A stretch of DNA of 64,000 nucleotides, from NCBI GenBank assembly GCA_951406725.2, contig OX597820.1, positions 99,076,001-99,140,000 on the forward strand, given 5' to 3'. Within the stretch, counting starts at the first letter, position 1; every line of letters begins with the position of its first letter. The notes beneath the pieces are model-generated. The model saw only the letters and a list, made by a program, of their open reading frames with translations. It was not told the origin of the DNA and did not search any database. This DNA is from Octopus vulgaris (Eukaryota). Shown piece by piece: positions 7,001 to 58,000 of the stretch. The position numbers and the translations under genes are program-made.

Positions 7001-10000
7001 CGAAACATATGTTGGAAGCATAACGATTTGAATAACACCTGTGTTTGATTCCATTTCTTAATTTATCTATGTTATACAAAAACATTTCACTTAACCCTGG
7101 TATTTCTACCTTTATAAGTAGGCTGTAATATCCTTGGCACATATGCGAATTTTTGCTACCCTGGTAACTACTTATTTATTTTTTCTGTGTTATTTGTACA
7201 CATTGAAAAAATACACATACATTTATATATATATATATTGTCTATATATATATTGTCTATTTAATTAAAAAATTCTATATGTGGCTGAAGATTGCTCTAC
7301 ATTTTAAAACTGATGTTACACTTGCATTGTTTAATAAAATGAAGTAGCATGAAACGATTGTACTATACTACATTGGATATCCTTGTTGCTTATTTTGATT
7401 ATAATCACCCCATTTGATTTATATGGATAATACCATACGAAATTCTGGTGCCTTTAAATTAAGTACCATATTCATCTGAATCTAAATTTTGCTGAACTTA
7501 CATATCATCATTCCAAACATGAACAAGCGAGAAAAAACAACAACACAAGGACGTGGAATAAGTACAGTGTTATTGGATGCTCAGGAAAGGAAAGAAAAGA
7601 AAGAGGATTTCACATATCAAGCAGAACTCTTCATCAGAAATATAGAAAAAGTCCAAAGAAAGGAAGATGGAGAAAGAAAATCGCCAACAATCTGTTTTCC
7701 ATGCTTGCATGGGTTGGACAGTTTGACACCAGCAGGCCAACCAGAGAGCTGTCAAGGCTTCAAATTGTCTGAATTGATATGGTTTCTACAGTTGGATGCC
7801 CTTCTTAATGCCAAACACTCTACAGAGTGCATTGCATCCTTTTTACAGGCTACTGGCACAGGTGCATATTACGTGCCACCAGCACAAGTGCATATTAAGT
7901 AGTACAGACACAAGTGCATTCCACATAGCACTGGCATGAATGCATTTTACATGGGACTACAACAAAGTTTCTGTCTATCAAATTCAGTTAAAAGGCATTG
8001 GTCAGCCAAGGGATATAGTACAAGATACTTGCCTAAGGTATTATGCAATGGGACTGAACCTGAAACCATGTGAGCTTTTTAATCACACATACACCTAATT
8101 ATTTTAACTAACATAATAAAAAGAAAGAAACCCACACACACATACAGAGAAAAGAATGACAGTACATGAACAACAAACAAATTAAAATACTCACATCAAA
8201 ATCAGAAACAAAATTGATGATGCCACACTTGTTTTTCTTGGAGATCTTGCTTTCCTTGATGGCAGTGATCTTATTTTGCTGAAATTTTAAAAAATGACCT
8301 ATATATAAAGGTTTTACATTTGGGTAAAATTTATGATCAGTCTAATTACGGATAGTAATTGAGTTATGAGTAGTCTTTGTTTGTTTTTTTTTTCACTTAC
8401 AATGAAACGATCAAAGTTACGTTTGGTCTTGACAAGGCAATTAGCAAACGTCATGCTTAAGAAGGAACCGGCATCCTGCGTGTTAATTACATGTTGGCTC
8501 ATACGCACCAACATATACATGGAGTTACTGAAAAAAAAAAAAAAAAAGACAAAAAAGTAGTTAGTAAGAGATTGAAAGTGGTTGTATTTGAGACTCACAT
8601 TGTTGACTAACAGAAAAGTACCTTCTTATATTCAGCAAGAATCCTCAGAAAGATTCTTGAGATCTGAAGAGACTTGTTGTCATCAAACCTCAAGATAAAG
8701 TTCCTTATATATACAGGATATAACAGCTAAATTAGGACAAATTTCAAATGGGTATATTTCTAATTGTATAGATTTTGTTGGAGGCTAAATTCTAAATATT
8801 ACCAACTTGAATAATCACTTGTAATATTTTATACTTTGGGTTGAACAAACTATGAATGTTAATACAGAATTAAATTGTAGCAGTGTAATTGCCGAATCAT
8901 TCTGCACCGGCAAATGTGCTGGGGAGATTGTTAGAGCCACAAAGTATGCCAAATCTACTGTTTTTAAAGTTGTAACCAATTTGAAGAAAAGTCAGGATGT
9001 TCAGAAAGCCTCACAGACCTTGTAGTAACCAAAAACGCACACCTCACTTCTTAACAGGACTTGAAAGATCGATTGAGTCGAACCCATCAAAATCAATGTC
9101 AAAGTTGGCTCAAGATCAAAGAATCAGTAAAATGACCGTTTCTGGGGCTGTGAGACAAGACCTCCATATGAAATTGTATGTGAGGAAACACCGTAACATC
9201 CTCCAAAGCCATTTGAGCTGAAAGAAGTCCCTAACTTCCTAGTCATCTGAAACATCGTGGTGGAGACGTCTGCATTTTTGTAATGAAAAGATGTTCGTGA
9301 TAGAAGAAGTTGCAAACCATCAAAACTCACAAGTGACAGTGAACAACCCTTCCTAAGTTCCTTCAGCTATGCATAGCAAGAATCCGGCTTCCGTTATGGT
9401 CTTTGGAGCTGTTGCAAGTGATGGGAAATTGATGCCTCTTCATTTTATTGAAGTAGATCTTAAAATCAACACACCAGAGTATATCAAAATCTTAGAAGTT
9501 TTGTTTCCTTGGATTAGGAAGCATTATGATGCAAGTTTGGTTATGTTTGTACAGGACTCTGCGCCAGCCCATTCTTCGAAAAGAATTTTTGAAGAAGGAA
9601 TTGCCCATGTTTGTCCCTAAAGATATTTGGCCCTCTAGCTTGTAAGATTTGAATCAGTGTGAGTTTTTGCTACAGAGCCCAGCTGCAGAAATATCCAACA
9701 CAACTTCTCACAACTATATGTCTTCTCTGAAGGCTTACATCAAGCAAGCATTCAGTAAAATGTAAAAGAAAGAAATAGTTAAGACATGCGCATCATTTCA
9801 TTAATGGATTGAACTATTACAGAAAGCAAATGACAGTCACATTGAACTGAAATAAGTGCTAAACACTAAAGAGGGAGAGAGAAGCGTCCATGACATGAGG
9901 TAGGGGGAACATAATAATAATTACGTGGATAAAAACGTTAGTTGAAGGTAGTGATGTGGAGGAGAGTTAGAAATATAATTTTACCAGAGGGGTGATGTTC

Positions 10001-55000: not shown

Positions 55001-58000
55001 AAAATGCACCATTCGACCGTGGCCATTTGCCAGCCCCATTAGGCTGACATTAGGAAGGGCATCCAGCCACAGAAACATTGCCAGATCAGACTGGGCCTGG
55101 TGCAGCCTTCTGGCTTCCCAGACCCCAGTCAAACCGTCCAACCCATGCTAGCATGGAAAGCGGACACTAAATGATGATGATGTGGATTTATTGTGACATA
55201 CATTTATTTTTTTTATTTAAATACAGATATGGCTTTGCAGTTAAGAAGTTCATTTCTCAACCAAGTGATTTTAGGTTCAGTCCCACTGCACAGTACCTTA
55301 GACAAATATTTGACTGTAACTCTGGTAGATGTAAACTGTGCAAAGTTCATTGTGTGTGTGTGTGTGTCTATATATATATATATAGACACATAAGGCGGTG
55401 AGCTGGCAGAAACGTTAGCATGCTGGGCGAAATGCATAGCTGTATTTCGTCTGCTGTTACATTCTGAGTTCAAATTCCACCGAGGTCGACTTTGCCTTTC
55501 ATCCTTTCAGGGTCGATAAATTAAGTACCAGTTACGCACTGGGGTCGATGTAATCGACTTAATACCTATGTCTGTCCTTGTTTGTCCCCTCTGTGTTTAG
55601 CCCCTTGTGGGTAGTAAAGAAATATATATATATATATATATTTATATACATGCATATCTGAGTGAATGTTTATGTTGCACTTTGCAAAATATAGCATCCA
55701 CAATTGGTGAGCCACACATGGTGAAGTTTGACAATTCCTGGACAAGAAATCATCCAATAGTTCTCTACTTTCACAGACATGTGGAATCAGAAAAAAATTC
55801 CTTACTTGCAAAACAAAGGTTAGCACCAGCAAGAACGTCAAACTGTAAGACTATTAACATGTATTCATTTAACCTATGCTATCATAGAGAAAACAATATA
55901 AAATGAAGGCACAAACAAATTTATTTCTGTACTTTCTGCCCAGATGACCATGTTCACTCCAATCCATAATTAACAATATTACCTCTATTAACAGAAAAGT
56001 CATTCTACATTACATGTGAAACTAGATAGAACACATCTAATTTCTCTCTCTCTCTCTCTCTAGTTCTATTTATGATTTATATTCTCTGATGTGGCTGTGT
56101 GGTAAGAAGTTTGCTTCCCGAACTTATAGCTCTGGGTTCAGTCCCACTGAGTGGCACCTTCGGTAAGTGTCTTCTACTACAGCCACAGGCCATCCAAAGC
56201 CTTATGAGTGAATGAGGCAGACAGAAACTAAAACAAGCCCATCATGTGTTTGTGCTTGTGAGTTTTCATGTCTTCACATCATGCGATAGTTGTAAAATGA
56301 TTTTCAGTCATGTGCCGGTGGCGCGTAAAAAGCACCATCCAATCGTGGTCGTTTGCCAGCCTCGTCTGGCACCTGTGCAGGTGGCATGTAAAAAGCACCC
56401 ACTACACTCATGGAGTGGTTGGCGTTAGGAAGGGCATCCAGCTGTAGAAACACTGCCAGATCAGACTGGGCCTGGCGCAGCCTTCTGGCTTCCCAGACCC
56501 CAGTTGAACCGTCCAACCCATGCTAGCATGGAAAGCGGATGTTAAACGATGATGATGATGATGATGATGAAGCTTCTCAGAAAGAGCAATGTGACCCCAA
56601 CTTCAGCTAGGTGGAGACAAAGACGTATGTGGTATTGTGGATTGCACCAATCATTCAGCTAAATATCTACATTGACCAGGGATCGTCCATGGGCTAAAAA
56701 CCAACAAAAGTAATACTTACTTTATTGACATCTTTGCCATCGACCACTTTCAGTTCTCTAAGAAACCAGGACAACTTTTTCTTATATGATTCGCCCTTGT
56801 CTGCTTTCTTCAGTTGGTAGATATGAGCTTGAACAGGGCTATCAACAGTCACTGAAATAAAGTTAAGAGACATCGAGATAGAATAGTGTATAGTAAATCA
56901 TATTGTATGAGATTTTTTTATTGTATTATACTGAGTATAACACACACACACACACACCCATACACTCCAGTGTATACACACACACTTCTTTCACTTCCTT
57001 TTTGCCACTCCATTTGCCTCTCTTCTTTTGTTTTTACCAGTTTCTCAACATCTTTAGGACTTTCCAGCTTCTCCAGATCTTTTCCTAGTGTTGGGAAATT
57101 TCTAAAATGCTTCTCTCAGAATTCACAATTTTTCTTACAGAATTCTTCCTCAGATGTTTCACCAACATTTTTGAGATTTCTAAATAACTTCTCTCAGAAC
57201 TAGTAAAAGCATTTCCTTTACCAATGTTTTTTTATAATCATTCATTTTTCTCTGACCTCTTCTCTCCTTAAACCTTTTCTCCCACTTTTACTTCTTTTGC
57301 TTATATCTCCCACGCAACAGTGTCTTGCATTCAAACCCCTGCACACCCTTCTTCGCACTATCCACATTCTTACCTTCCCTTTAACTTGAAACACACACCC
57401 GCTCTCACCTCCTCACATCTACACTTTTCCCATACACACTTTACAATCACACAAACACACATCAACACCTCACACTCCCACTAGCCTATGCTACTATGCT
57501 TCCACACCTGCACATTTCTACATGCATACACACACCCCGAAAAAAAAACACACAACTCCACTGTTTGATCATTTTCAAACAGTTCTTAACTCCCCACCTA
57601 CACCCCACATGAGCCACATTCCTGCCTGGCTCATATCTCTCTCTCATTGATTTCACTTTCTCACTGATGAAAGACTAATGCCCGAAACATTAAAACTCTC
57701 TTTTTCTTAAACATTAACCAAATGCAATATTTCTTAAACTTTGTCCTGCCTGACCAAAGGCTATACTAAATACATAGATTTTATGATTATATTTGAATAT
57801 TTGATACGCATTACCTAACACCATAAATTCTGCTTACTGTCAATGAGAAATGGGGTAGTTAGAGTGATGATTTTTTTTTTTTTTTGTGGTAAACTGAAGA
57901 GTTATTGAGACTTACCTGCTGCGCACAAGAAACTACTCTTTTTCTTCTTTCCTGCTTTGGCAACATGGACTAGGCCAACAAGTCTTTCTTCAGCAGGAAG

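What the first reader, a model, noticed from the sequence alone, without database searches (positions are those of the whole stretch)
7279..57695. Dense set of intronic hammerhead-ribozyme motifs, with preserved cores antisense to EXOC1 and broken cores on the sense strand
Seen: on the + strand (antisense to the gene), cores at 7285 (CUGAAGA..GAAAC..GUA), 16873 (CUGAUGA..GAAA..CUA), 33815 (CUGUCGA..GAAAC GUA) and 57664 (CUGAUGA..GAAAC), plus a decayed one at 20665. On the - strand (pre-mRNA sense), all three have core lesions: 7637 (GAAA to GAUA), 37212-37252 (CUG missing) and about 27251-27300 (CUCAUGA). Known: minimal type I hammerheads occur in the pLTRs of Penelope-like elements and in non-autonomous retrozymes. 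Inference: several distinct ribozyme-bearing retroelement families colonise these introns, and selection may remove self-cleaving copies from the transcribed strand. The sample is only about eight motifs, and some antisense copies are decayed too.
Basis: partly seen in the sequence, partly recalled or inferred. Interest (0 to 1): 0.8.

Follow-up and report, generated by a model that had tools for sequence, protein, structure and literature searches.

The report
Octopus Penelope hammerheads, no strand purge
Six of the eight motifs are real hammerhead-ribozyme-shaped sequences in repeat copies inside octopus EXOC1 introns, likely all tail ends of Penelope-type jumping genes, but most of their defects are shared by whole repeat families and other genes show no clear strand bias, although one family of about 15,000 copies carries an unusual core letter that is likely kept by selection.

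Summary
Six of the eight motifs are real type I hammerhead (HHR) bodies in dispersed repeats inside Octopus EXOC1 introns. Two families sit directly 3' of Penelope GIY-YIG ORFs elsewhere in the genome. 20665 is single-copy and lacks GAAA. 27251 (CUCAUGA) is a family-wide hairpin read on the wrong strand. The intact-antisense/broken-sense contrast fails. Only 7285 and 16873 are canonical and paired. 33815 has A6U, and 57664 has broken stems. 'CUG missing' is family-wide (29 of 29 copies; 35 vs 0 genome-wide), and 7637 belongs to a G17 subfamily. In 48 kinase-gene regions, whole HHR bodies were 12 sense and 11 antisense, with intact cores 5/12 vs 8/11 (p=0.21). A T-A skew proxy showed no purge. 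So this is ordinary Penelope debris, and a mild strand bias is not excluded. The better lead is the 33815 family: 14,944 exact copies with U6 vs 158 with A6. Positions 7 and 17 vary between subfamilies, G17 is avoided, and the motif is more conserved than its flanks. That points to a selected A6U core, untested for cleavage.

The parts
7280..7367 (+). Type I hammerhead, canonical core (CUGAAGA, GAAA, palindromic stem III, GUA), long stem II; antisense to EXOC1
   Evidence: family of 1,455 candidates, best copies 93-97% identical
7517..7688 (-). Decayed repeat tail with minimal hammerhead at 7641-7607 (GAUA, CpG decay, G17); sense to EXOC1
   Evidence: wider family 3,386 H17 vs 189 G17 exact copies
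16835..17024 (+). Penelope-type 3' tail with canonical hammerhead at 16869-16906 (CUGAUGA, GAAA, AGUACU palindrome, CUA), ending at (TA)n; antisense
   Evidence: relatives lie 3' of GIY-YIG ORFs in L197, L198, L203, L204
26973..27323 (+). 5'-truncated tail whose own hammerhead is cut at stem III (26973); the CUCAUGA at 27297 (-) is a hairpin on its opposite strand, not a hammerhead
   Evidence: 0 of 24 copies have CUGAUGA
33740..33945 (+). Short repeat with A6U minimal hammerhead at 33810-33847 (CUGUCGA A GAGU GUAG GCUC GAAA CG UA); antisense
37092..37390 (-). Penelope 3' UTR copy with degenerate hammerhead at 37252-37212 (no C3-U4-G5, weak stem II), plus an inverted 120-nt arm at 37271-37390; sense
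   Evidence: ORF-linked in L039, L054, L055, L056, L059
57637..57752 (+). Old decayed tail; hammerhead boxes at 57664-57691 kept, stems I and II broken; antisense
6980..7070 (+).
20657..20676 (+). Single-copy hairpin containing CUGAUGA; rejected as hammerhead
928..58039 (-). EXOC1 (Sec3) host gene, 18 exon matches covering residues 1-772; continues beyond the window start

Best explanation
The six real motifs are type I hammerhead bodies in dispersed, (TA)n-ended repeat copies inside EXOC1 introns, likely all 5'-truncated 3' ends of Penelope-like retroelements, that likely landed in either orientation and are likely inert passengers. Shown: each belongs to a dispersed family; two families lie directly 3' of GIY-YIG ORF ends; the A6U and missing-CUG states are family-wide, and G17 is subfamily-wide; such copies occur on both strands of genes. 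Inferred: Penelope RT/GIY-YIG proteins copied element RNA into AT-rich sites, usually only the last 200-350 nt. Each family amplified with the core its source element had, and copies then decayed neutrally. Also inferred from the literature: lone minimal hammerheads with 1-3 bp palindromic stem III need a partner copy or protein to cleave, so a sense copy costs the pre-mRNA little and is not purged. The window's pattern is a small-sample draw.
For: Family searches and alignments. ORF adjacency for the 16873 and 37212 families. A 765-aa ORF from the genome has homologues with PF00078, PF26215 and PF01541, and GIY-YIG has 6,136 candidates genome-wide. Family-wide lesions. Stem covariation on 11 hand-picked copies: 81% paired, 4 pairs with double changes. 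Kinase sample: 12 sense vs 11 antisense, intact 5/12 vs 8/11, p=0.21. Flank T-A skew of intact canonical copies is +0.026+-0.018, where a purge predicts a negative value. Literature: monomers of a Schistosoma min-HHR did not cleave (PMC4209133), and the Anolis PLE HHR needs protein and is dispensable for insertion in vitro (PMC11167929).
Against: The sample is only 23 bodies, and four of them are two inverted pairs. The skew proxy is indirect and may be shifted upward by unmasked T-rich tails (A6U baseline +0.019). No upstream Penelope ORF was found within 1.5 kb for the 33815, 7637, 27251 or 57664 families, and the 7285 family was not examined, so their assignment rests on architecture. Xenopus retrozymes are reported as depleted from introns (bioRxiv 2026.07.22.740005; not strand-resolved in the passages seen).
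Confidence: 0.83

Rival explanations
1. Selection removes or inactivates cleavage-competent hammerheads on the pre-mRNA strand, at least mildly.
For: Both fully intact canonical window motifs are antisense. Kinase sample 5/12 vs 8/11 intact; pooled with the window 5/14 vs 11/15, p=0.066.
Against: Five sense copies keep intact boxes (L147, L152, L170, L176 twice). Skew points the other way. The lesions pre-date insertion. Intron cleavage between exons need not block splicing (general knowledge, not tested here).
Confidence: 0.12
2. The most successful families carry attenuated or dead cores (A6U, G17, no CUG) because weaker cleavage is less harmful or helps spread; selection acts on source elements, not on strand.
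For: A6U exact copies (14,944) outnumber the canonical sister family (3,386). The CUG-less family is ORF-linked with 796 candidates. Naiads proliferate without canonical HHRs (PMC8557442).
Against: Exact-match counts of different patterns are not comparable copy numbers and confound age. G17 is a 5% minority. The family with many full 781-aa ORFs has a U3-A8 covariant core that is expected to be active.
Confidence: 0.25
3. The motifs are chance matches in AT-rich intron DNA.
For: True for 20665 and 27251. No Rfam hammerhead hit; folding z-scores of single copies are weak.
Against: 3 descriptor hits vs 0 canonical or A6U hits in shuffles; repeat families, covariation and ORF linkage.
Confidence: 0.02

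Closest known systems
Minimal type I hammerheads in pLTRs of metazoan Penelope-like elements (Cervera and De la Pena 2014, PMC4209133; Lunse et al. 2017, not available to read)
   Same: Type I topology, extra nucleotide after A9, short palindromic stem III, many dispersed single copies in several families, position 3' of RT-GIY-YIG ORFs, nearby inverted copies, U3-A8 covariant families.
   Different: Here one family of at least 14,944 copies has U at position 6, and one ORF-linked family lacks C3-U4-G5. Neither variant appears in the parts of that paper I read; its supplements were not seen.
Natural A6C hammerhead of phage Bcep176 (PMC3088659, PMC7151607)
   Same: Natural substitution at core position 6; slow in Mg2+ and rescued by Mn2+.
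   Different: A single phage example with C6, versus a high-copy animal repeat with U6; no activity data here.
Non-LTR retrozymes (bioRxiv 10.64898/2026.07.22.740005)
   Same: Short non-coding HHR-bearing repeats derived from Penelope pLTRs; the A6U family may be non-autonomous, and L016 holds a short tandem run.
   Different: Window copies are monomers ending in (TA)n, not tandem arrays; circular RNAs not tested.
Naiad/Chlamys PLEs lacking canonical HHRs (PMC8557442)
   Same: PLEs can spread without a canonical ribozyme; (TA)n insertion bias.
   Different: Those have an N-terminal endonuclease; the CUG-less family here has a C-terminal GIY-YIG and a visible HHR remnant.

Membership tests
PLE minimal type I hammerhead | Core boxes CUGANGA, GAAA, NUH | tested here: met
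   Met by 7285 and 16873, and by boxes only at 57664. Not met by 33815 (A6U), 7637 (GAUA, G17), 37248 (no CUG), 20665 or 27251.
PLE minimal type I hammerhead | Stems I and II with covariation; bulge after A9 | tested here: met
   (11 hand-picked related copies, one misaligned; relatedness inflates the control).
PLE minimal type I hammerhead | Short palindromic stem III | tested here: met
   ACGU (33815), AGUACU (16873), ACGAUUGU (7285), ACCAUGGU (37212 family).
PLE minimal type I hammerhead | Self-cleavage as dimer or with protein | not testable with these tools
   Only assembled contigs were available.
Penelope-like element (C-terminal endonuclease) | Motif lies 3' of an RT/GIY-YIG ORF | tested here: met
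   16873 family in 4 GIY-YIG-selected loci plus L127; 37212 family in 5 of 29 loci.
Penelope-like element (C-terminal endonuclease) | Same ORF link for the 33815, 7637, 27251 and 57664 families | tested here: inconclusive
   No directly upstream ORF within 1.5-kb flanks of 29, 29, 24 and 5 loci; L015 has an ORF start downstream. The 7285 family was not examined.
Penelope-like element (C-terminal endonuclease) | 5' truncation, inverted partial copies, (TA)n ends | tested here: met
   (I23).
Non-LTR retrozyme | Tandem units each with a hammerhead | tested here: not met
   No tandem array covers a motif in the window; one short tandem run in L016.
Non-LTR retrozyme | Circular RNA intermediates | not testable with these tools
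   No raw RNA reads.
Rfam hammerhead families | Covariance-model match | tested here: not met
   No hammerhead family among 122 matches at E<=10.
   5/12 vs 8/11, p=0.21; skew proxy not negative.
   Family-wide for 37212 and 27251; only GAUA of 7637 is copy-specific.

The most novel reading that the evidence does not exclude
The octopus genome's large 33815 repeat family has fixed a non-canonical A6U hammerhead core that is kept by selection on its source elements: a working, probably slowed, metal- or protein-gated ribozyme variant present in more than 15,000 copies, beside a canonical sister family and an ORF-linked family that lost the core altogether. Together they would form a natural series for asking what Penelope hammerheads are for.
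Probability: 0.3. Interest if true: 0.62.

Novelty: new variant of a known kind. Interest (0 to 1): 0.33.

Why it matters
As found, this is a known kind of element in a new host, and the strand-selection story does not hold up in an independent sample. What matters more is the series of family-wide cores in one genome: canonical, U3-A8, A6U, G17 and CUG-less. The role of hammerheads in Penelope elements is open, since they are dispensable for insertion in vitro and absent from Naiads. High-copy sister families differing at single core positions make that question directly testable. An active A6U core would also widen search descriptors, which as published require CUGANGA.

Tried and rejected
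Rfam scan: no hammerhead family matched; the hits were microsatellite-driven miRNA matches. The first descriptor was too strict at pair 10.1-11.1 and missed 16873 and 7285. Single-copy folding was uninformative. RNA: no RNA holder listed on record; the laid contigs confirm splicing of three EXOC1 exons but cannot show strand, ends or cleavage, and repeat-derived contigs swamp the motifs. 20665 and 27251 were rejected as hammerheads; 41174 (weak 66-nt match) was not counted. A CUG-bearing form of the 37212 family was sought: 0 exact matches vs 35 for the observed form (strict patterns). An upstream ORF for the A6U family was not found in 1.5-kb flanks. The idea that only core positions are fixed in the A6U family was tested and weakened: loop II is about as fixed (16% variant over 4 positions). 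GC skew was useless as an orientation proxy (23 of 48). Intersecting listed copies with gene spans was considered and dropped for lack of power. No earlier findings exist for this genome or sequence.
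Full report
Setting. The window lies in a 2.8-Gb genome (G000). An exon peptide matches a protein named exocyst complex component 1 of Octopus vulgaris at 100% over the aligned part. tblastn places 18 exon matches on the - strand from 58039 to 928, and contigs from four runs join the exons at 12117-12197, 8401-8521 and 8194-8278. 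All eight reported motifs are intronic.

Checking the motifs. The strings are present. Rfam gives no hammerhead match among 122 hits at E<=10. A first descriptor found no perfect hit. A second one, allowing offsets in stem II and requiring a palindromic stem III, found 7285, 16873 and the A6U motif 33815, with 0 canonical or A6U hits in 5 shuffles of the window. 57664 keeps both boxes but its stems are broken; relatives show the paired form. 20665 has no GAAA and matches only itself in the genome (that search can miss common words). 27251 is in a family where none of 24 copies has CUGAUGA. The element runs on the + strand, and full copies L095, L107 and L115 carry a canonical hammerhead on the strand opposite to CUCAUGA. 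The window copy is cut at stem III at 26973. So six whole bodies remain, four antisense and two sense, plus partial antisense pieces at 6980 and 26973.

Are the lesions copy-specific? 37212: all 29 fetched relatives lack CUG (two are near-duplicates), and exact patterns give 35 matches without CUG vs 0 with it. 7637: GAUA is in 0 of 29 relatives, but 25 of 29 have U-G17. That subfamily is a minority: 189 G17 vs 3,386 H17 exact copies. 33815, listed as preserved, has U at position 6 in 27 of 28 parsed relatives (one row unparsed) and in 14,944 vs 158 exact copies. Relatives were chosen by similarity to the window copy, which biases toward its state; the pattern counts do not share that bias.

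What the elements are. Copies are 5'-truncated, T-rich, end in (TA)n, and often have inverted partial partners. GIY-YIG has 6,136 candidates in the genome, of which 150 were scored, many in 781-aa open frames. One such ORF has homologues with PF00078, PF26215 and PF01541, the Penelope layout. The 37212 family lies 130-280 nt behind such ORF ends in 5 of 29 loci, and relatives of 16873 lie behind them in 4 of 18 GIY-YIG-selected loci plus L127. No directly upstream ORF was seen for the 33815, 7637, 27251 or 57664 families in 1.5-kb flanks; the 7285 family (1,455 candidates) was not examined for one. Their Penelope origin is inferred from architecture. On 11 hand-picked related copies, 81% of cells pair and 4 of 10 pairs show double changes; one row was misaligned, and relatedness inflates the shuffle control.

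Testing strand bias. From 135 kinase matches I fetched 48 ten-kb regions around internal exons and oriented them by gene strand; further exons on the same strand were found in most. Family profiles gave 36 hits. I dropped 13 partial ones (9 sense, 4 antisense), leaving 12 sense and 11 antisense whole bodies. Core boxes were intact (canonical or U3-A8, H17) in 5 of 12 vs 8 of 11 (Fisher p=0.21). The figure is p=0.67 if A6U counts as intact, and p=0.066 if the discovery window is pooled in (counts entered by hand). Strictly between detected exons the counts are 2 of 4 vs 5 of 7. Four bodies are two inverted pairs. Second test: gene-sense strands have T>A in 44 of 48 regions (mean 0.058). Masked flanks of intact canonical copies, oriented to the ribozyme, gave +0.026+-0.018 (15 of 26 positive, 7 loci skipped), and A6U copies +0.019+-0.016 (17 of 30, 1 skipped). 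A purge predicts negative values. By family, the canonical ones were if anything more positive than the deviant ones. Leftover T-rich tails may shift all values upward. Conclusion: no purge is shown, and a mild one is not excluded. Density (6 per 64 kb vs 23 per 480 kb, p=0.09) is not exceptional.

Mechanism. Inferred: Penelope RT/endonuclease copies the 3' end of element RNA into AT-rich sites in either orientation; each family carries its source element's core; copies decay afterwards. Sense copies are likely tolerated because these ribozymes are weak alone. Cervera and De la Pena saw no monomer cleavage and low dimer cleavage for a Schistosoma motif (PMC4209133, parts 1-2 of 4 read). The Anolis element's HHR needed protein and was dispensable for insertion in vitro (PMC11167929, passages).

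The A6U lead. In the first 100 of 14,944 exact copies, position 7 is T 44, A 25, C 20, G 11 (my count). By contrast G5 varies in 406 and G8 in 488 copies (about 3%), and A6 appears in 1%. Position 17 is A or U in the copies seen and G in only 121 (0.8%). Positions 7 and 17 are the ones a hammerhead tolerates (established knowledge). Two subfamilies (34 and 6 copies) agree at 33 of 35 motif columns but only 61 of 84 and 34 of 67 flank columns. Against: loop II is as fixed as the core (17,886 vs 14,944); few source lineages could give this pattern; and changes at position 6 are known to slow cleavage (PMC3088659 passages; PMC7151607 passages, A6C rescued by Mn2+). So selection on a U6 motif is likely but catalysis is untested.

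Literature position. Min-HHRs in metazoan PLEs, including U3-A8, are known (PMC4209133). PLEs without canonical HHRs proliferate (PMC8557442, passages). Xenopus retrozymes are reported as depleted from introns, with no 'antisense' or 'orientation' in the text (bioRxiv 10.64898/2026.07.22.740005, part 1 of 5 and passages). The O. vulgaris repeat annotation lists active Penelope families but has no occurrence of 'hammerhead' or 'ribozyme' in its main text (PMC13282606, passages). Searches for hammerhead+Penelope+octopus, hammerhead+A6U+variant, CUGUNGA and intron antisense orientation listed no paper that, by title and abstract, describes these octopus variants or a strand test. Lunse et al. 2017, on small PLE-associated variants, could not be read (seen only as cited in PMC6765202). 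No supplements were seen; either may already list A6U.

Verdict. New variant of a known kind; interest 0.33.

Noticed in passing
L187:945-3287 and 3' flank (also L188-L194): Young Penelope family with many full 781-aa RT-GIY-YIG frames, an upstream frame of 330 aa or more in several copies, and a U3-A8 covariant hammerhead near its 3' end.
   Followed up: partly
L054, L055, L056 (family of window 37092-37390): ORF-linked Penelope family whose only hammerhead-like motif seen in the 3' UTR lacks C3-U4-G5 and has a weak stem II, yet has 796 candidates; copies differ about 4% from the majority.
   Followed up: partly
flanks of L001-L140: About 28 further canonical hammerheads of many families, several with 30-60 nt stem II inserts and 6-8 nt palindromic stem III, often as inverted pairs (L062, L064).
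   Followed up: partly
L016:979-1700: Short tandem run of the A6U repeat separated by (TA)n; one unit has A6. It could form a dimer.
   Followed up: no
L149, L152, L170, L025, L108, L055:550 and 915: Several additional families with the U3-A8 covariant core.
   Followed up: partly
window 37090-37390: 120-nt inverted repeat (96%) with a 61-nt spacer, typical of Penelope inverted insertions; would fold back in the pre-mRNA.
   Followed up: partly
48 kinase regions and window: Consistent T>A skew on the gene-sense strand (44 of 48; window 0.087), usable as an annotation-free strand proxy; no G/C skew.
   Followed up: yes
window 59296-59811 +: 171-aa frame resembling a mariner/Tc1 transposase fragment (recalled resemblance, not searched).
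   Followed up: no
window 3875-4261, 62317-62712, 42793-43014, 51177-51555: 43-nt x9 and 142-nt x2.8 tandem repeats, and long GAG/GAA purine tracts beside EXOC1 exons; the 142-nt unit contains a weak CUGAAGA..GAAU hammerhead-like hit.
   Followed up: no
window 36086-36502 -: Frame with an exon-like stretch ([12 protein letters not shown]...) not matched by the EXOC1 isoform used; possibly an alternative exon.
   Followed up: no
protein hits P0029, P0040, P0060, P0074: Penelope-type RT-GIY-YIG proteins labelled as bacterial symbiont proteins, probably host contamination.
   Followed up: no
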